A stretch of DNA of 63,795 bases, the filler included, from Kipferlia bialata (taxonomy: Eukaryota), in assembly GCA_003568945.1 (NCBI GenBank). It is 6 parts of 6 records of this genome, joined end to end, with 100 filler letters (N's around TTAATTAATTAA, not from the genome) between each part and the next. Parts side by side here need not be neighbours in the genome. Positions count along the whole stretch, not along the records: positions 26,047 to 38,966 come from BDIP01001014.1; 5 more parts are not named here. The stretch is one strand, 5' to 3'. The translations under genes and the position numbers were made by a program. How positions within the stretch are numbered: position 1 is the first letter of the stretch; each line of letters starts with the position of its first letter. A model generated the notes under the pieces. That model was given only the letters and a program-made list of their open reading frames with translations. It had not been told where the DNA came from and did no database searches. Of the stretch, positions 27,009-40,598 are shown one piece after another.

Positions 27009-30000
27009 TGGGGACTGGATGGCAGTGTCAAGTATAGCATACAACACATACAGATACACATACACACACATAACCACATATGTGTGTCATAGTATGACTC
27101 ATACTGTTGCAAGAGAGATAGGCCTAGTAGCGCGCATACATATATGTGTGTCATTACTTGTCACTTCTAAATACATATATTCTTTCTAGTGGATCCATGT
27201 TACACCTAGGGGTGTGCGTTGTCCTGTACCACCTGGAGACAGATGTGCATATACACTTCTACATACATTATCAGTATTCATTAGGTCTACACCTATATAT
27301 TACTATACATTAATACCCAGGGTTGCCGTTGTGGTGTACCACTTAGAGACAGATACACACATATATATGTAGAATGCACATGTATGTATTAGTATAGTCA
27401 CACACATATATTTGCAGACATATTATTCACTAATACTCAGAGGTGTCGTTGTCCTGTATCACCTGGACACTGCTGCAGTGACAGGCACTTATAGAGTATA
27501 TATTGTGTATAGTACATATAGTACATCATACACTAATGCTCAAAGGTGCCGTTGTGCTGTACCATCAAGAGACAGATGCAGAGACAGGCACATACAGTAT
27601 ATATATAGTATATATAGTGACAGTACCTATATTGTATTGTATCCTTACCCCTAGGGGTGCTGTGGTCCTGTACCACCTGGACACTGATGCAGAGACAGAC
27701 CCATACATATATATAGTATGTATTGTATATATAGAATAGTACTATATACTGATACCCAGGGGTGCTGTTGTCCTGTACCACCTGGACACTGATGCAGAGA
27801 CAGGCACCTATATGTATATATATGAATATATATATGAATATATATAGTGAATAATACACTAACGCCTAGGGGTGCTGTGGTCCTGTACCACCTAGGCACT
27901 GATGCAGAGACAGACATTTATAGAGTATATATAGTATGTATTGTATATATAGTGCACTATATACTAATACCTAGGGGTGCCGTTGTGTTGTACCACCTAG
28001 AGACTGATATAGAGACAGGCACATACATATAGTATGTATAGTGACAGTACATATATTATTGTATTTTATCCTTACCCCTAGGGGTACCGTTGTGCTGTAC
28101 CACCTAGAGACTGATGCAGAGACAGACACTAACCAATGGGTGGAGCACACAGTGATAGAGCCAAGTGCTGACACACCAGGTGTATATACACATTAGTATA
28201 TACTATGTATATATTCTATGTCTATATGTATATTCTATGTATAGCTAGACCAAGGGGTGGGTGGAGCACACAGTGCTAGAGCCTAGTGCCGATACACCAG
28301 GTGGATATACACATTAGTTTATACTATGTGTAGCTAGACCAACCATATTGGCTGCAGTATAGTTCTATCCTTATATTTATACTAATATATCCAAATGAGT
28401 GGGTGGAGCACACAGTGTTGGAGCCAAGTCCCGATACCCCAGGTGTATATACTGTTTATAGTTATAGTGTTGGCTACAGTATAGTTCTATCCTTATATAC
28501 TTACGCTATATACCCTAATGAGTGGGTGGAGCACACAGTACTAGTGCCCAGTCCTGACACACCAGGTATACATTGATAAGACATATATAGTATGTGTATA
28601 CCATACACCTAAGTGCATTTGTGTACTGACTCCAGGCACCTATGGGAGTCTGATGTTTGGTACCTCTCTCTCCCTGACAGGGACATCCATAGCAATAGGG
28701 GCTAACCAGGAGGTATATATATAGACATGTGTATGTTTGGAGAGAGTGCTCTTAGTGTACTTCTTCTAGTAAGGTTTCGTTTGGAGTTGTTGTTTGTGAG
28801 CAACTTTAGAAATAGGTCCGGGATTACTATTCACAAGTTGAGATATCTTATCTTGTGTACGTTAGTATAATAATTGTGTTAAATCCACCGCCTCCCCCAC
28901 AGGTTGTCAATGGACGTCTCTGGGCTGGGGCGGTGTATGTGTACACACTGACAGAGGGTGAGTGAGGGGGTATTCTTGGGTCTTTCAACGTTGTACTTCT
29001 AGCCCTATTGTACTCTATTCTACTCTCCTTCAATCATGTTCTGAAGAAGTGAATATCCATCCCCTGCCCCTCACCACAGATGGTGTGTGGACACAGGAGG
29101 GACACATACCTATGCCACTGGACATTGTGCAGGTATAAGTATGTATATATATGTATACAATTATGTGTATATATGTATATATTAACTCAATGACACATAC
29201 CCATCCCAGTGGACATTGTGCAGGTATAAGTGTCCATTTGTATGTATATATATATGTGTGTAGATATATTTGTGTACAGATCATTTAATGACACATACCT
29301 ATGCACTGTATACATTGCTGACATAGTTGCTAAATTGTATTTGTTCCAAAACACAATTGTGCTTCCACTCATATATTGTCTAGACCCTCACTGCAGGACT
29401 ACGAGGAGGACTTTGGCTACTCGGTTGCCCTGGGCCCCGACTTCCTAGTCACATCCAGCACCCACAGTGTGTATGTGGCAGAGAGATCAGGTTAGTATAT
29501 GACACAAGAATACATGTGAATGTATGGATGTATATATACCTTTGTATGTATGTTGCAATAGTACTCACACCAGCTGAGGGTGTGTTGGGCACAGCTGCCA
29601 AGGTTGAGTATATGAGGAGTATACAGTGCTATGTCTCATAACAACAGATATATGTAAATACTATATGTGTATATATATTTGCATCGTGGACTTACACCAG
29701 CTGAGGGTGTGTGGGGTGAAGCTGTCAAGGTTGAGTCTCCTGATGGTGTGTTAATGTCCTCAGCCACTCTGGTATACGGACAAGGGACAGTGGGTATAGG
29801 AGCATTGGCCTCAAGTGTGACAGTGGAGGTATAAATGGTACATATATATGCATATTCATATATATATATATATATGGTACACATAAGGTGTCAGTGTCAT
29901 CTTCCGCTCGAGCATTGGCTCCAAGTGTGACAGTGGAGGTATGCCACAAAGAGAGCCTGTGAACACAACTTTACCCGAATACTGAAGGCAATACTTGCAT

Positions 30001-33000
30001 CCTTACCCCTCAGGGTGAGGTCTTAACCATATATAGTTGCATACATATATATATGAATAGACATTATTATATGCTAATGTATCTATGTATAGGTTGAGGT
30101 GGTCATACGCACTGACCCTCAAGGCGACCCTAACTAGGGCTGGTCTTGTCCTTCGTATGACACCTCCATCTATATATAAATACATACATATATGTATATA
30201 TGAATATACATTACTATATGCGAATGTATGTATGTATATAGGTTGAGGTGGTCATACCAACTGACCCTTAGGGTGAGGTCTTAACCAGAGCTGGCCTTGT
30301 CCTACTGTATGACACCTCCGTCCCTTTACACATATAGATGGACACTATATATATGTTTATATCTGAATAGACATTGTCCTCTCTGCTTAGTATAGGTTAT
30401 GGTCATACTAACTCTACAGGGAGAGACGCTCACCAGGGCTGGTCTTGTCCTACTGTATGACACCTCCATCCCCCTGTGGTACACTAGTACAGACACAGCT
30501 GCTGGGACAGGGTTATACCAGGCATGTATGGCACAAAGAATCCGTATAACTCAGACACACATGTATATAGACTAAACCTACGTACATACATTACTCCAGG
30601 TCCTCCAGTCCCCCTCCCCCCAGAGGGATGGGATGTATATCTATATCTATCTATATACCTATCACTGTGTCTGATCATGTATATTAGTGTACGTAACTCA
30701 CCCTCAGGTCCTCCAGTCCCCCTCTCCCCAGAGGGACGGGCTGTTCGGGGGTGCTCTCTCCTTTGACGTGACATCATTTGTCACAGATGGAGTGACGGTG
30801 GAGGTATGTATATGTACTTGCACATAGATAAGGTCATGTTTCTATCTGACTGTAGGCCCAGTTGCTAGTGAGTGAGTCTGCAACTGATGAAATATTTAGT
30901 ATTATATATATAGATACATGTATATAGTAAGGTAGTGGCAGTATCTAACATCCAGGCCCAGTTGCTAGTGAGTGAGTCCGGTGCCAATGTCCTGTTGGCA
31001 GAGGGGGCAGGGGTGGCACATTTGTATAGGTATAATATATACATACTTGTATATATATATACTATGCTATTAATGTATATATATGTATGTATATGCTGGT
31101 GCCGATGTCTTGTTGGCAGAGGGGGCTGGCGTTGCCCACCTTTACAGGTATGTATATTCTCTATATATATTCTCTATTGGTTTGACGTCTAGTCGATTCA
31201 GCGTCTCAGCGTCTCAACGTCTCAACGTCTCAGCGTCTCATACCCAGGTGCAGTGATGCTGGCACTGTGTATCCCATGACTCTGTTCCAGACTGTTGTAC
31301 AGACACCCAAGAGCAGTGAGACATTTGGATACAGGGTGGCTGTCAGGTAGATATATGTTGCTAGGAGTGTCTAGACTACAGACTGTAGTGTGTGTGGTAT
31401 AATCTTATGTATAGACTTATCACTAGCGGAGAGAGGATGGCCATCGGTAATGGGGGTGGTCCAGTGGTGGCTGTCTCTCTCTCTCTCTCTGTCTCTCTCT
31501 CCCCCTAAGTATGTACATACAACACTAATCAATAGGGGTGAGAGGATGGCCATCGTTTGTTGGGCTTACCCACATTCACTAGTTCTACCTGTATGTCTCT
31601 ATATATCTATCCATCTATAGGATATGTGTAATATCCAGTGGAGAGAGGATGGTCATCATTGTATTTCTCTCTCTCTCTCTCCCCCCCTAAGTATGTATAT
31701 ATAATTCTTATCAATAGGGGTGAGAGGATGGCCGTCGTTAGCGGGGGCGGAGCAGGAGGGGTGACTGTACTGGACTACTCAACGGTGGCAGGTACGTATA
31801 TAGCTGTATATATTTATATATGTATTCATATATATATAGAGATAGATACATATATACTAGTGTATACCATCTGACTGCACTGGACTACTCAACGGTGGCA
31901 GGTATATTTTTAATACATGTACAAATATATACTATTACTATGTATATATTTAATATACTATCTGACGGTGCTGGACCACTCAACGGTGGCAGGTACGTGT
32001 ATATATATACTAACAGTAGCAGGGTTGCATACTCCCGCACAGTGTGTTTATATACCTAAAACACTGTACACCCATTATATAGGCCTGTATGTCCCCGCTG
32101 CCCCAGTGCCAGCTGGATGTATACCTACGTCTGTGATCTAAATATATATATATATATATCCAATATATATATATACGTATAACCACAGGCCTGTATGTCC
32201 CGTCTGCCCCTGTCCTTGAGAGTGGGTTCAACGGAGAGAGCAGGAACTTTGGACAGTCCATCGCACTCTGTGATGACGGTATCACTGGTACAGGTACTAT
32301 ATATGAATGGGTGTATGTATACCTTCCAGTAGAGTGTGTCTCTATCACCTTACTACCAGGCCCCACTCTCTATGTGGGCAGTGCCCTAGATGGGATATTG
32401 GTATATATACTTATATATATTTACGTGTATGTACATATATAGTAGTCTAAGTATTTATACTATCTCATATCCAGCTACCACTGTCTACGTGGGCAGTGCC
32501 TCCCTAGATGGGACAGGGGGGGTATATGGGGTCATGGTGAGGTAGGGTATATGTATGTATAAGTGTATATACGTATGTAGATATGTTGTTGGGGAGAGAA
32601 TGAGAGAGATAGGATGGATGGGGACAGGGGGTGTGTATGTGATCATAGTCAGGTATGGTGCACTAACACTGAAGTGGGTGGGAGAGAGGGAGACTGGGTA
32701 TATGGGTTGTGGGGTGGTGCGATTTGGCATGTGTAAAGATTTATTAATTAGTATTAGTATTAGTATAATTAATGTACTCTGTACTGGTATGATATTAACA
32801 CCAGGTCCATTTACGCCAACTGCTGGATGCCAATGGCGGACCAGATGCCCACATGCGGTGCAGCAATGGGAAACATCAGGTATACATAGTATTTATACAC
32901 TTATAGTGCATAGTACATATTTATAGAGAGAGAGACAGAAAGGGAGAGAGAGAGGGAGAGAGTGATGCCCACATGCGGTGCAGCAAGGGGAAACATCAGG

Positions 33001-36000
33001 TATACCTTATATGTACTAAATATACATTTTATGTAACGACAGAGAGAGAGAGAGGGAGAGAGGGAGTGTAATGATTGATCAGATTCCCCCATGCAGCACA
33101 ACATTGGGAATTGTTTGAAATGCTTTTGTATACATGTATATACTAGTATATGATATATATATAATCCACATATGAATCTCTAACCCTCAGAGTTTATGAC
33201 GTCGAGACAGGGAATGTCTGCACAGACGACCTGTCAGCTGGTATGTTCATATATACAATCATATATATATATATATTCAAGTATTCACATACATAACAGC
33301 TAGAGAGGCAGAGAGACGGCCAGCCAGCTGGTATGTACACGTATACATATTTGTGTATGTGTATCTATGTATATTCAGTAGTGTAATATATGGTGTATGT
33401 ATATACACTCTTACTATTAGGCCTCTCTGCCTATTGGCAGACCCCCGAGGGATACTGTGTATATGTATATATNNNNNNNNNNNNNNNNNNNNNNNNNNNN
33501 NNNNNNNNNNNNNNNNNNNNNNNNNNNNNNNNNNNNNNNNNNNNNNNNNNNNNNNNNNNNNNNNNNNNNNCTATATGTATGATCTTACCCATAGGCCTCT
33601 CTGCCTATTGGCAGACCCCCGAGGGTGAAGACGTCCAACCACCCCAGCCGATGACTGTTAGGGATCCAGTCAACTTCCCAGGTATGTCATGAACATACTA
33701 GGCATACACACATATATCTATTATGTACATACTATATATACAATGTGTTATAGTTCATGTAACCAGCCCATGACGGTCAGAGATCCCGTCAACCACCCAG
33801 GTATGTGTGCTTATACTCTGTATACGATAGTATAGTAAATATAATTGTAGTACAATACACATGTGTGTATATATATTCTATCTCACTTCAGGCGAGTACC
33901 TCATAGACCTGACTGGCCCACCTGGCCATGTATTCTATATTTACACAGTATACATAAGTATATATAGTATATATATATTCATAGTATGTGTATTTGAACT
34001 TTCCCCAGGCGAATACCTCATAGACCTCACTGGCCCCCCTGCCCCTGGGTTACACACTCTCAGGGTGTGCTACAACGGTATGTGTATACAGACAGATATG
34101 TGTGTGTGTGTGTGTGTGTGTGTGTATACAGACAGATATGTGTATACTACTCATTCTAATGGTATATATATATATATACATATGGTACAATACATGCATC
34201 CACCCCCAGGTGTCACCATCACCTCAGGAAGTGCCCTCACACTATTAATATGTATATTATGTATATATATGTATATATATGTATATATATGTATATATAT
34301 ATATACTGTGTATATCTCCTCTAGTAGTGCCCCCAGTGTACAGACTATATATATACACATATATACATACTATGTATAAGTATATATATTCAATCGAACT
34401 TACGCAGGTGTCACCCTCACCTCTGGCAGTGCCCCCACACCATATATATATATATATATATACATACTGGGTATAAGTATATATATTCCAACTTACGCAG
34501 GGTGTCACCATCACCTCCGGCAGTGCCCCCACAATATATATATATATATGTATTTGTGTGTGTATCTACGTATGTATATGTGTAATGCTGCTATCATGCT
34601 TCAAGTCACCCATATCAGGTGTCACCATCACCTCTGGCAGTGCCCCCAGTGTACAGACTGTAGACCCCACTCTATCAACCATACACGGCACATGTACCAA
34701 GGATGAGCCACTACCCATATCCATATCCATACTAGACAGCTGTGGTGGGAGCATCACGGGTCTAACTGTCACTGCTACAGTAACAAATGCATCTGGTACC
34801 GTTGTGTACACTGGAGACGTGACAGAGGTTGTGGGTACCCCAGGGGTGTATGAGACTGTTACTGATAGCCTACCCGAGGGTGTGTACACTGTAAGTGCCT
34901 TAGCCGGAGGAGTCGTTGTTACTGGCACTCTCTATGTGTGTGCCTTCACTGTATCTGAGGGAGGTGTGGACTTCCACATTAGTGTGGAGTCATATGTACT
35001 GATAGACTCTGTCTCTGCCACTGCTGGTGTGCCACACTACGTGGGTCTAGCCCTCTATGACGTAGAGGGTAGTGCTGTTACAGCACTGGTTGATGTGTCA
35101 ATAAGGGACACTGGGACTGGGGCTGTGTACCCATTGACTATTAGTGGTAGTACCTACACAGGTAATATCATTGTATTGCTAGAGGCTACTATATATATAT
35201 GTGTGTGTGTATGTATGGTTATGTGGTGTATTTACTCCAGGTGTTATGGTGTATTTACTCCAGGTGTTGTGGTGCTAGAGGATATATAGTATATATGTAT
35301 ATAGCATATAGTATTTATGTATATGTTTTGTATTTACTCCAGGTGATGTGGTACTAGAGGATATATATTATATATGTATATAGCATATACTATATATGTA
35401 TATGTAGTGTATTCACTCCAGGTGATGTGGTGCTAGAGGCAGGCCAGGCATCCTTGATGGTGGTGGTGGGGGGGGAGTCATTCTTCATATTCAAGGTGGG
35501 ATGATTTTCAGCGGCTATGTTGCAATGTATATTTAGTAATAGTATATATCCGTCAAGGTTCGGTGCTACTGCACTATATATATAGTGTCTATGGATATAT
35601 ATACATTCTTGAATCCTTCTTCATATTCAAGGTATGTATATATATATCTATGCGTCTAACTGTATAGAGTTACTGTATTACGTATATATGGATGTATCTA
35701 TGTATTGCTATTTCGCCAGTGTCTCTCTTCATATTCAATGTTGGATATATGGTATATATCATATAGTAATAGTGATATTAATAGAGATATACGTCAATGT
35801 GTGATGATTTGTTCCTGTAGTATGTCAATGGTATATATATATGTACATACATATACAGTGTTTATTCTTCCTGTCTTTGTGGTCAGAGGATAACGTACTC
35901 TCACAGGTGTATATTGGCTTCACGTTTTCTCTAACCCTAGATTGATGTGGATGAGCCCTTCCCTGCTGAGCCTGTGTCCAAGGTGTGTGTGCATGCATAC

Positions 36001-36384
36001 ATACTTATACTACATACAGAATAACATGTCTCATGTCTGCTGTATATATGCATCCCAAATCATTAGTTGTAGCTCACTGTGTACACACGTGTATTTTATA
36101 TGCATTGTCTGAGCCATCGTATATTACTTGTAACCACCAAATACCAGTGCGCATAGGTTGGACCCTCTTTGTTCTTGCCTCTGTATTCATCTTTATATAC
36201 ATATTTGATATATTATTACCATACACATTATATAATATATAATATATACACTCTAATCACCCAGGTGCCTATGGTAGTGGGATGGACCCTCTTTGTCCTA
36301 GCCTCTGTCTTCATCGGTGTCAGGGAGGGCATGCGGTGCAAGTACAAGGACCATGTCAGACTTGACATGGGTGCTACCGCGTAG
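26401..36384 (+). CDS. Type I membrane surface protein: signal peptide, FG-GAP (integrin-alpha-like) beta-propeller, Ig/filamin-like domains, C-terminal TM helix
   Basis: MLLSLAVLATVLSLCYG signal peptide; repeats MFGTSLSL..IAIGA..AGAVYVY, DFGYSVAL, LFGGALSF, TFGYRVAV, NFGQSIAL..YVGS; Thr/Val-rich beta region 34619-35161; TM VVGWTLFVLASVFIGV then REGMRCKYKDHVRLDMGATA*. Confidence 0.8.
27200..28570 (+). repeat. Exon-echo tandem array: 8 acceptor-side and 3 donor-side partial copies around the real exon ~28082-28179
   Basis: ~110-bp period copies of [..CCYAG + GGTGCYGTKGTSCTGTACCACCTRGASACWGATGCAGAGACAG] upstream, and of [GGGTGGAGCACACAGT..ACMCCAG + GT] downstream. Confidence 0.9.
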
Positions 36385-37213
36385 AATATGAGTAGTAGTA
36401 ATAGAGAGGGAGAGAGAGAGTGAGGGGAGGGAGGGTATGAGGTGCAAGTACAAGGACCATGTCAGACTGGAGATGGGGGCAACCGCGTAGAATATGAATG
36501 AAAAGACATATAACATTTTTACATCATAGTTCCTTATGTTTTGTTAGAATGTCTTTGACAGGTATGCATCTGGTAAGGTGCAAGTACAATGACCATGTGA
36601 GACTGGACATGGGGGCAACAGCATAGATAATTGATACATATAGTAATAGTAACAATATTTGAGAGACAGAGAGAGAGCGAGAATGTAAGTACAATGGCCT
36701 TATGATATGGCCCACATCAGTCTGTATATGGGGGCAACAGCATATACACACGCCTTGTATGCAAAATAATGAGTGAGAGAGATTCAGTTGCGCCAAAGAT
36801 CATGCTAGACTGGCAAATTTGAATGAAACACATTTCTGGACAGATTCCATTCCATTTGGGTTCTTTAGCAACTTGTCCAAGGGCTAACTGTGGCAGAATA
36901 GTGTATATTGCTTCGTGAAGAAATACTCTGCTTGATTGGAAGGACTATGCAGGAATATTGAGAGACAGCGGGAGGGTTTCAACAAATTATTGAAATAGAG
37001 TTTCTATATTTTGAGATGTACTACATTGGGCAAATGTACTCAACAAAGAACACATAGAAAGTTTCAATTTGAAACCTTTCAGCGGCTTTCTCTCTTGGTG
37101 CTCCCTCGCATATTCCCTCTATTGAGCACTCCCTACCACACTTACTACTTACTATCTTACACAGAGAGGGGTGTCACTCAGTACGTATTGCCTATACGTG
37201 CCTGGTTTAGGCA

Positions 37214-37819
37214 ATGTCGAAGAAGAGTGAGCGCTTCGCCTTGCTGAACTCCAATGCTCCTAGCCCAACACCTAGCCCATCATTAGTGGCTCCTCCCTCT
37301 AGTGCCTCTGACAAGGCCCAGCACTCCACAGGACATACCTCCCAAGGTACTTTATAGGCTATAAATTATAGCACACCTCTGATCTGCATACACATATCTA
37401 CATTTACATACCTATATCAAATTTACTTATACACAGTCATATCATATGTACTCTAAAGCGCTCCCATATACATTATGTGGCATATATTCAACATACCTGA
37501 TGCAGCTCAGGGAATCGGTGCTCTAAACGGCCCTTCCTGGCGAAAGGAGATCTCCGTGCCCTCAGAGAGAGATTCCGACGACCCATACTTCAGTTACAGG
37601 TATAACACATAAGGGCCTAGGCTTGATAGCCACCAAATACATTGATTTCTCCTCAGTTCCAGGGAGGCCGTGCTGAGACACGGCAACTGGCAGGACAAGG
37701 AGCACATGCCAACCTGGGAGGAGTTTGAAGAGATGGAGGAGGACTACCAGAGAGCAATGGCCTCGGAGTCAAGGGACTCACTACGTGACTCCAGTGAGGA
37801 GACATCTGGATTTCCTTGA
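37214..37819 (+). CDS. Small 3-exon hypothetical protein (~130 aa)
   Basis: MSKKSERFALLNSNAPSPTPS.. | AQGIGALNGPSWRKEISV.. | SREAVLRHGNWQDKEHMPTWEEFEEMEEDYQR..SGFP*; introns join in phase (1, then 2). Confidence 0.6.
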
Positions 37820-38966
37820 CTGAGAGGGGGAGTTTGAAGAGATGGAAGAGGACTTCAAGAGAGAGAGAGGGAGAGAGAGACATGACCTCGGAGTCCAGTG
37901 AGACATCTGGACTCCCCTGAGTAGAATACATCCCGAGAACTATAAAGAGACTGATCAGTATATAGTACCTTACTAGGCCTAGTACGGCTTACTAGGCCTA
38001 GTACTACAAAAGTATGTATAACTTATACATTGTATAAGTCAGAATAGATTCTTGTCACTTTCTGCCTCGACGGTCCTAACCCTGTAAATACCTTACTACC
38101 GGGCTCTACTCCCGCCAATGGCAGTGCCATGCACATACAAATTGCAAACTCAGATCGACAATTTTGGATTGTGGGTGTGGCTCAAAAGATACATACAGGA
38201 AGATAGATGTTGGACCTTACAACTGATCATAGCATTCCAGCCGGGTCCCCACTGCTTAGAGCTCTTTTAAGTATGAGAAGTAGCCATATTTTGACGGATT
38301 CTATTCCACCATTCCACCATAATACAGCCTGTTGAGAACGAAACTGGCAATCTTCACGCTCAGCCTCAGTCTTAGGTTTAGCCAAGGGTGAACCAACTTT
38401 GTATTTAGTTACTTGCGTCCTATTGCGGTGACTGTGATCTACTTGAGAGGGGCTCTATCATTGAAATAGGATTACTATAGATTACCTCTTGAAGAGGTCC
38501 TCTTCACTTCTTGAAAAGATGAAGTGCAAATAGTATCAGTGTCAGTATCAATATCAGTCAATTGCTAACAGTGTCAGACTAGCACTGTCAGTCTGCCACT
38601 TCCTTCACTTCTTCTTGTGAAGCTGAAGGTTCCCCAGAGCTCTGTTGAGCTTCCTCACGTCACGCCTTTCCTGGGGTCACATCCAGATACAACATGATAC
38701 TGATAAGGAATAGAGTGGCAATCGTACTTTATCAGTGAAAAATTATCACAGTGTGGTACTATGTCATAGTCCGCCAGTACTACAGTTATAGCATCACTAA
38801 CTCAGTTATACTAGTTATAATGACTAAGATATAACTAGTTTATAACATATACTATATGTGTTACATATATAGTACTTGCCGAAGCCCCTTATTTCGCCAA
38901 AATATGGACCCTATTTTGGATGAAATGACCCCCCTTTGGATGGATGAAATAGTGTCGGGCATCATT

Positions 38967-39114: not shown

Positions 39115-39167
39115 GTCTCTATGGCTTAGAGTACTTCTATAAAACCTCCGCCCACTGCATACTCTCG

Positions 39168-39198
<31 letters not shown>

Positions 39199-39204
39199 AT
39201 CTCC

Positions 39205-40598
39205 CTAAAGTACCTCACCCCACTGCATACTGTCATCTGGGTACACCATGCCCTGTGGCAAGGTAAGAGAGACACAGTCACCTCTGGAGAGTGGCAGAAG
39301 CCTTGAGTTAGGGTGAATATATACATATTTGTGTGTGGTACAAATATAGTGATTATACGATAATTGTCCTCTCCTACCACAGTATCCTTCACTCCCTCTC
39401 TTTGGTACTATATGCATACAATAGTATATGAATATATGCATACACTAGTATATACATATATACCTGTCCTCTCCCACCACTGATACCCGTTCTGCCTCCC
39501 TTAGAAAGGGGCCACTAGAAGCTTAAGATAAGAGGCTAGAGAGAGAGAGAGAGAGAACATTGTCAGAAAGGGGCCACTAGTAGCTTGAAATAAGGGGCTA
39601 GAGAGAGAGGGAGAGAACACATGACACATTGTCATAGAGGGGCCACTTGTTGCTGAGATGGGTATATAACCATATACTACATACAAAATTCCATATACTA
39701 TAAACTACATATATATATCCATACAGAGTGTCATAGTATAGTGTATTCATATGCATATACATAACTGTCTCAGAATGATACCCATGTATACATATTAGTG
39801 TAACCAGATACCTCTTGCGTCAAGTGACTCTTTCATCATACAGATTTCTCTTTCATCATACAGATTTCTCTTTCATCATACAGATTTCTTGTTATGACAT
39901 GTGTAAGTATCTATGCGTATATAACAAGTCTGTGCATATAGCACCTCTTGTGTCAAGTGCACACCAGTCCAGATACTCTCATCATCCATAGTATTAGCTA
40001 ATTGCGTAATTAATGTATATAATACATATTATTGATTCATCGTTAGTGTCTATAATACCTCTTGTGTCAAGTGCACCCCAGTCCAGGTACTGGCCAGTGA
40101 TGGTGTCACATATATAAATATATTCACTGACTCTTATATATAACTCGTTATACTACTCTCTCACTTCATACTATAGTTCTATAATGGAGTTACTCCATTG
40201 GAGTATACAGTAACTACATTCATTGATACCCACCCTTTGTACTTAGTGCACCCCAGTCCAGGTACTGGCCAGTGATGGTGTCATATATATATATACACAA
40301 ATATACATATANNNNNNNNNNNNNNNNNNNNNNNNNNNNNNNNNNNNNNNNNNNNNNNNNNNNNNNNNNNNNNNNNNNNNNNNNNNNNNNNNNNNNNNNN
40401 NNNNATTCAGTGCACCCCACTCCAGGTACTGGCCAGTGATGGTGTCATATATATATATAGTCAAGTATACTATATATAGTGTACTACTGTATATATTCAT
40501 AGAGTACCCTTTCTATTCAGTCTACCCCAGTCCAGGTACTGGCCAGTGATGGTGTCATAGGCTAGGACCTAGGTGTTATGGAGAATGTACACATATAT

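What the first reader, a model, noticed from the sequence alone, without database searches (positions are those of the whole stretch)
36264..36745. Echoes also trail stop codons, so the process marks coding boundaries and not only splice sites
Seen: the final codons plus stop are re-copied downstream. FG-GAP gene GMRCKYKDHVRLDMGATA* is echoed at ~36433-36490 (5 synonymous changes, 1 D/E) and more decayed at ~36577 and ~36684. The same occurs after 37819 (echo 37828-37920), after 50898 (echoes ~50998, ~51140) and on the minus strand after 39205 (SMQWGEVL* echoed as SMQWAEVL* at 39137-39163). Inference: a DNA-level mechanism anchored in conserved exon sequence and ending in divergent non-coding DNA, e.g. 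one-sided homologous strand invasion, rather than a spliceosomal one.
Basis: partly seen in the sequence, partly recalled or inferred. Interest (0 to 1): 0.82.

Follow-up and report, generated by a model that had tools for sequence, protein, structure and literature searches.

The report
Other alleles' echoes at coding edges
In the free-living protist Kipferlia bialata, short copies of exon ends, including ends with a stop codon, are stacked about every 110 bases in the adjoining non-coding DNA, and their mostly silent differences suggest they are likely leftovers of recombination with divergent alleles from other individuals.

Summary
The window is joined Kipferlia bialata contigs. Stops carry echoes as often as splice donors (4 of 11 vs 50 of 132), so splicing is not needed. 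The new result is that echo-versus-exon dN/dS is 0.21 (95% CI 0.16-0.27; dS 0.23), and echo-versus-echo is also 0.21. A sister-chromatid duplication decaying neutrally would give at least 0.5. The echoes were therefore coding sequence for most of their divergence, yet no close donor copy was found. Best reading: scars of offset recombination between highly divergent alleles, anchored in exons and closed by microhomology end joining. Boundaries are likely not read by any machinery: they are where homology ends and where selection tolerates a duplicate. The allelic origin is inferred; no second strain or whole genome was available.

The parts
36265..36384 (+). Last exon of FG-GAP gene KIPB_004654 (P0001), stop TAG 36382-36384
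   Evidence: spliced alignment of P0001
36156..36191 (+). Acceptor-side echo of the start of the same exon (offset -124; 4 changes, all synonymous)
36385..36427 (+). Spacer after the real stop, ending in a GA-rich tract at the junction with echo 1
36428..36497 (+). Stop echo 1 (offset +106; 5 synonymous + D>E; stop kept; 7 nt of post-stop identity)
   Evidence: covered from 36437 by RNA? contig record 9
36577..36626 (+). Stop echo 2 (offset +242; 6 synonymous + K>N; stop kept)
36709..36744 (+). Stop echo 3, decayed
37657..37819 (+). Predicted last exon of the next gene, stop TGA
   Evidence: own prediction
37826..37920 (+). Its stop echo, split by a GA tract, TGA kept
39205..39301 (-). Predicted last exon of a minus-strand gene, ...SMQWGEVL*
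   Evidence: (own prediction)
39137..39170 (-). Its stop echo SMQWAEVL*
50798..50898 (+). Last exon of KIPB_004656 (P0003)
50998..51037 (+). Stop echo 1 of P0003 (2 synonymous, E>G; stop kept)
51140..51162 (+). Stop echo 2 of P0003, weak
26284..26341 (+). Candidate start-codon echo upstream of the likely ATG at 26401 of P0001 (start inferred)
   Evidence: length of RNA? contig record 10
27211..28022 (+). Array of 8 acceptor echoes of P0001 exon 3, each a different mostly synonymous variant
50289..50722 (+). Array of 5 acceptor echoes of P0003 exon 11

Best explanation
The echoes are ~110-bp head-to-tail duplications across coding edges, and they likely arise when a chromosome recombines with a highly divergent allele, pairing in the conserved exon and closing the other end out of register by microhomology end joining. 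Steps: (1, inferred) the population holds alleles about 20-35% apart at silent sites and far more divergent in the microsatellite-rich flanks, so strand invasion can start only in exons. (2, inferred) The copied or exchanged strand runs off the exon into non-matching DNA, cannot anneal back, and is joined by Pol-theta-type end joining to an internal exon position. The result is exon end of allele A, spacer, exon end of allele B. (3, shown as a pattern, cause inferred) Only events that leave one intact copy next to the exon survive: 3' ends downstream of donors and stops, 5' ends upstream of acceptors and probably starts. (4, inferred) Echo and exon edge are now direct repeats, so unequal inter-allelic exchange grows arrays with a shared inner junction and the same period. 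Which copy is the incoming one is not resolved.
For: dN/dS 0.214 over 146 echoes at 99 flanks (bootstrap CI 0.16-0.27); 0.205 in the annotated set and 0.236 in the predicted set. 162 of 277 changes are synonymous against 80+-7 in a permutation that keeps the substitution type; 0 of 277 create a stop. Echo-echo dN/dS 0.21 at dS 0.38; singletons 0.21, arrays 0.20. Polarity 49 of 49 and 46 of 46. Identity about 0.85-0.9 on the exon side collapses past the boundary; only 16 of 58 spacers are detectably homologous. No such duplication in 5,097 bp of intergenic DNA. Each of the three proteins is a one-member 90% cluster and P0002's paralogs are at most 53-59% identical, too far to be donors at dN 0.02. 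The flanking dinucleotide pattern continues into the echo at 22 of 94 junctions against 5.7 expected, a weak microhomology proxy. K. bialata has PolQ, Spo11, Msh2, Msh3, Rad52 and Dmc1 entries but none for Ku70 or Rad54 (PMC8516963 supplement rows); fornicates lack Rad51A (passage).
Against: No second allele or strain was seen: two metagenome scans found nothing, and the DNA contigs over the stretch were mostly absent. Spacers are more divergent than dS 0.23 predicts, so they may be partly new filler DNA. The ~110-bp scale is unexplained; exon part and spacer lengths are uncorrelated (rho 0.03), which argues against a fixed total-length ruler. Matching of echo amino-acid changes to paralog residues was not significant (7 of 16 vs 29%, p=0.14). 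Only 64 kb were analysed, and echo density varies strongly between contigs.
Confidence: 0.6

Rival explanations
1. Echoes start as ordinary sister-chromatid tandem duplications. The functional exon is later repeatedly replaced by gene conversion from divergent alleles, and the introns mutate fast, which produces the silent bias and the homology cliff.
For: Failed SDSA plus TMEJ makes tandem duplications from ~100 bp upward (PMC8654963 passages). 16 of 58 spacers are homologous and some units match over their whole length (35250-35439, 92%). 11 of 95 echoes are identical to the exon.
Against: Neutral decay since capture is bounded at about 0.05 per site by dN (inference), yet 42 of 58 spacers show no significant homology. 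Exon-limited conversion would not do that. It still needs the same hyperdiverse allele pool.
Confidence: 0.22
2. The donors are near-identical paralogs, or a second haplotype of the same cell that is missing from the assembly or has been lost by loss of heterozygosity.
For: These genes belong to families (FG-GAP; 17 relatives of P0002, of which the 8 looked up are K. bialata proteins). The assembly is fragmented (PMC5874029 section 12).
Against: The closest paralogs are 53-59% identical, clusters have one member, and eight distinct variants at one boundary need many donors.
Confidence: 0.08
3. Echoes are functional alternative exon ends or alternative last exons, kept by selection on the protein.
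For: Low dN/dS; splice dinucleotides and stop codons are mostly retained.
Against: Echoes copy only 13-63 nt of one exon edge. Offsets are not frame-preserving (27 of 94 divisible by 3). The main RNA? contig (2370 nt, CDS 2367) ends about 1 nt after the real stop and no joint was listed.
Confidence: 0.05
4. Echoes are an assembly artefact that strings alleles of a mixed or heterozygous sample in tandem.
For: Short-read SPAdes assembly; the period is close to a typical short-read length (recalled); echoes look like alleles.
Against: All 427 sampled 31-mers of 34600-38900 are in a separate contig set (run X1, which may be the source sample). A 170-nt contig of a second library (X2, depth 2) spans echo 1, spacer and echo 2 with 0 differences. 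Junctions join intron-like DNA to exon interiors, which no allele would contain (inference).
Confidence: 0.04

Closest known systems
Tandem duplication by failed SDSA followed by Pol-theta end joining (C. elegans helq-1/brc-1; PMC8654963, passages read)
   Same: Head-to-tail duplicate of the stretch copied during repair; sizes start near 100 bp; microhomology junctions. K. bialata has PolQ and no Ku70.
   Different: There the template is the sister and the copies are identical, with median ~1 kb, in mutants. Here copies differ like alleles, are narrowly ~110 bp, are seen only at coding edges, and account for roughly half of the intron length in three genes.
One-sided invasion (Puchta 1998, as cited in PMC9299229, passage read; the one-homologous/one-illegitimate-junction detail is recalled)
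   Same: One end anchored by homology, the other joined without it.
   Different: Described for introduced templates. Here it would be natural, inter-allelic, recurrent and polar around exons.
Exon-biased crossing-over in hypervariable Schizophyllum commune (PMC4209137, abstract read)
   Same: In a hypervariable species recombination is confined to conserved exons.
   Different: The abstract reports crossovers, not offset duplications left beside exons.
Intron gain by tandem duplication of exonic proto-splice sites (PMC2891723, abstract read)
   Same: Exon-like copies inside introns.
   Different: That route makes a new intron and, by my reasoning, puts the downstream-exon copy first. Here donor echoes precede acceptor echoes in 12 of 12 introns, and existing introns are lengthened.

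Membership tests
Failed-SDSA/TMEJ tandem duplication | Direct head-to-tail duplication at the locus | tested here: met
Failed-SDSA/TMEJ tandem duplication | Sister template, so copies are identical at birth (pairwise dN/dS at least 0.5 after decay) | tested here: not met
   dN/dS 0.21, CI 0.16-0.27
Failed-SDSA/TMEJ tandem duplication | Junction microhomology or templated inserts | tested here: inconclusive
   proxy enriched, 22 of 94 vs 5.7; donors unknown
Failed-SDSA/TMEJ tandem duplication | Dependence on Pol theta | not testable with these tools
   gene listed for K. bialata
One-sided invasion | One homologous and one non-homologous junction relative to an identified donor | tested here: inconclusive
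   pattern fits; no donor found
Intron gain by tandem duplication | Intron starts with a copy of the downstream exon and ends with a copy of the upstream exon | tested here: not met
   opposite order in 12 of 12 introns
Duplicated alternative or mutually exclusive exons | Whole exon with both splice sites, frame-compatible | tested here: not met
   edge-only copies of 13-63 nt; offsets mod 3 = 27/40/27
Duplicated alternative or mutually exclusive exons | Use in transcripts | tested here: inconclusive
   contigs of one RNA? run, no joints listed, sparse cover
cDNA/retro-templated repair | Copies span exon-exon junctions and lack intron bases | tested here: not met
   GT or AG kept in 70 of 88; no convincing junction

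The most novel reading that the evidence does not exclude
Kipferlia's expanded introns and 3' flanks are a stacked archive of other individuals' alleles. A recurrent, exon-anchored inter-homolog repair route, in a lineage without Ku and Rad51A, deposits a ~110-bp layer at coding edges. One haploid assembly would then record a hyperdiverse (silent divergence 0.2-0.35), recombining population, i.e. cryptic sex in a free-living fornicate, and a new driver of intron growth.
Probability: 0.45. Interest if true: 0.88.

Novelty: new variant of a known kind. Interest (0 to 1): 0.72.

Why it matters
If allelic, the echoes give population diversity and evidence of inter-homolog recombination from a single genome of a group in which sex is debated (recalled). 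They explain intron length here: 138 + 99 bp per echo, r=0.92 over 51 introns, about 55% of that intron DNA. The genome paper treats intron abundance as ancestral and has no hit for 'duplicat', 'tandem' or 'heterozyg'. The echoes are also a natural splice-site-choice experiment, since most keep a decoy GT or AG about 110 nt from the real site. They also mislead gene prediction: my predictor took many as exons. Stop echoes are the control that removes splicing from the mechanism.

Tried and rejected
No whole genome was available, so the genome-wide tabulation was not possible. Metagenome scans for another strain found nothing. No RNA holder was listed on record; X2 is only a guessed RNA run. 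In one search the DNA run gave no long contig over the stretch, so alleles or echo-less haplotypes could not be tested, and the gene at 37214-37819 had no exon cover (uninformative). Only 1.5 kb was laid. Fixed-length ruler: not supported. A gradient of dN/dS from boundary to inner junction: none clear (0.19 vs 0.22). Decay with rank in arrays is slight (dS 0.23, 0.26, 0.29). Paralog-residue test was inconclusive. My gene predictor absorbed echoes as exons. For the replication set I raised the exon penalty, dropped 8 predicted exons (3 evident echoes, 5 doubtful ends) and those scoring under 11, and added 8 exons from 5 genes by hand; one added exon had the wrong frame but has no echo. A few weak hits in that set may be low-complexity matches. 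One echo across an assembly gap (offset 971) was left out of the spacing and junction tests. Earlier scan notes: none found. Ten paper searches (listings only, except for the papers cited) showed no report of this pattern; the library is open-access only, and I did not open the genome paper's supplements, which could bear on the novelty claim.

Full report
Setting. The window is a chain of contigs separated by N-linker-N blocks. Exon queries returned Kipferlia bialata proteins KIPB_004654 (P0001, FG-GAP Pfam PF14312), KIPB_004653 (P0002) and KIPB_004656 (P0003), on contigs of 12920, 12921 and 12905 bp that match the window segments. Spliced alignment placed their 56 exons. The genome paper (PMC5874029; passages and section 12 read) describes an Illumina/SPAdes assembly with 124,912 introns and has no hit for duplication, tandem or heterozygosity terms.

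Observation. All four stop echoes are confirmed. After the FG-GAP stop at 36384 come copies at +106 (57/63; 5 synonymous, 1 D>E), +242 (43/50; 6 synonymous, 1 K>N) and a decayed third. The stop codon itself is kept in 6 of the 7 copies. The minus-strand echo has a double change that keeps leucine (CTT>TTA).

General pattern. Aligning each annotated exon to its two flanks gave 95 echoes at 59 of 112 flanks; 6 of 2862 control pairs reach the cut-off. Upstream echoes copy the exon's 5' part (49 of 49) and downstream echoes its 3' part (46 of 46); in 12 of 12 introns with both kinds, donor echoes come first. The exon-derived part is 13-63 nt (median 32), spacing has median 110 (quartiles 98-120), and intron length is 138 + 99 bp per echo (r=0.92; 51 of 53 introns, 2 with long gaps dropped). 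My predicted exons elsewhere gave 51 more echoes, median first offset 106. Stops carry echoes in 4 of 11 cases and donors in 50 of 132 (Fisher p=1.0); 9 of the 11 stops are from my own models. One likely start-codon echo lies at 26284-26341. That the true start is ATG 26401 is inferred from an RNA? contig of 2370 nt against a 2367-nt CDS. Intergenic DNA (5,097 bp) has no comparable duplication, only one 16-nt repeat at 19 bp. Density varies: 88 of 166 flanks in three contigs of 42-43% GC, 5 of 42 in a contig of 44% GC, and 6 of 80 in two contigs of 51-54% GC.

What the differences say. If an echo were copied from the same chromosome and then decayed, it would change at all sites while the exon changed mainly at silent sites, so pairwise dN/dS = (1+w)/2, at least 0.5 (inference). 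Observed: dS 0.243, dN 0.050, ratio 0.205 in the annotated set, with 162 of 277 changes synonymous (80+-7 expected if neutral) and no new stop. The predicted set gives 0.236, with 2 stops in 131 changes. Combined: 0.214, bootstrap CI 0.16-0.27 over 99 flanks. The ratio holds for transitions (0.31) and transversions (0.21), for singletons and arrays, and between echoes of one array (0.21 at dS 0.38). Since dN caps neutral decay at about 0.05, at least 0.18 of the silent divergence arose while both copies were coding (inference). In the 8-copy array before exon 3 of P0001 the echoes are different synonymous versions, and four of the eight read G-T-Y where the exon has D-T-N. Echoes are unlikely to be translated: they have one splice site and no frame preference. 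No close donor was found among the annotated proteins. The simplest source is divergent alleles of other individuals.

Edges. Identity is about 0.85-0.9 just inside the exon and falls to near background within 10-25 nt outside it. 16 of 58 first spacers are detectably homologous to the DNA beyond the echo, and GT or AG is kept in 70 of 88 echoes. At the inner junction the flanking dinucleotide repeat continues into the echo more often than expected (22 of 94 vs 5.7), a weak sign of microhomology. No echo convincingly crosses an exon-exon junction, which argues against a cDNA template.

Reality and transcripts. All 427 sampled words of 34600-38900 occur in contigs of run X1, which may be the source sample. 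In run X2 (RNA is a guess), a 170-nt contig at depth 2 matches 36437-36606 exactly. A 2370-nt contig at depth 37.7 carries the real last-exon sequence and ends at the place equivalent to 36385; no joint was listed. So the echoes are real DNA and do not appear in the main transcript contig. Contigs cannot fix a 3' end, so this is only a hint.

Mechanism. Shown: polar edge duplications, allele-like differences, a homology cliff, no splice dependence. Inferred: strand invasion between divergent homologs succeeds only in exons, as crossovers do in hypervariable Schizophyllum (PMC4209137 abstract). The extended strand fails to anneal in heterologous flank and is end-joined out of register, as failed SDSA intermediates are in C. 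elegans (PMC8654963 passages). Selection removes in-frame damage and leaves edge-spanning events, and unequal exchange then grows arrays. The gene set fits: NHEJ and Rad51A absent, Dmc1 duplicated (PMC8516963 passages); PolQ, Spo11, Msh2, Msh3 and Rad52 listed for K. bialata, Ku70 and Rad54 not (supplement rows; one supplementary file could not be searched). That Dmc1 tolerates mismatches is recalled. The ~110-bp scale also holds at stops (68-138), where splicing cannot select it, so it probably reflects the repair process (inference from four cases).

Verdict. The finding is real and is the useful control for a larger pattern. The parts are known repair routes; this architecture was not found in ten open-access searches. 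Novelty: new variant of a known kind. Interest 0.72; confidence in the inter-allelic mechanism 0.6, limited by one 64-kb window and no second strain.

Noticed in passing
window 37600-37656 (+): A 57-nt GT..AG intron whose sequence (37601-37651) is matched by many DNA contigs of run X1: 18 laid, summed depth about 57,700 against about 430-470 for kb-long contigs, 2-5 differences in 34-41 nt. A high-copy repeated intron, an Introner-like candidate. No second copy in the window; no paper with 'introner' and 'Kipferlia'.
   Followed up: partly
window 52072-63795 and 1-12925 versus 13026-51971: Echo density differs about sevenfold between contigs (11 of 122 vs 88 of 166 flanks). The two GC-rich contigs and the ribosomal-protein-like gene at 53163-53662 (L32 by recall) are nearly echo-free, which may mark recombination-cold regions.
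   Followed up: partly
window 6-101 and 8024-8113: Inverted 85%-identical copy of an exon and its flanks: two related genes facing each other on one contig.
   Followed up: no
window 30521-30522: GC-AG intron donor in KIPB_004654.
   Followed up: no
window 13026-25946: KIPB_004653 belongs to a K. bialata family of very large proteins (up to 5,100 aa; one is named dynein heavy chain linker domain-containing). Many of its introns share an acceptor-side motif, a CT repeat followed by ACACCCTT..CAG.
   Followed up: partly
window 36385 and 26396-26401: The FG-GAP RNA? contig seems to start a few bases before the ATG and to end about 1 base after the stop, suggesting very short UTRs (inferred from length).
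   Followed up: no
window 37969-38003 and 42829-42868: Short near-perfect palindromes in non-coding DNA.
   Followed up: no
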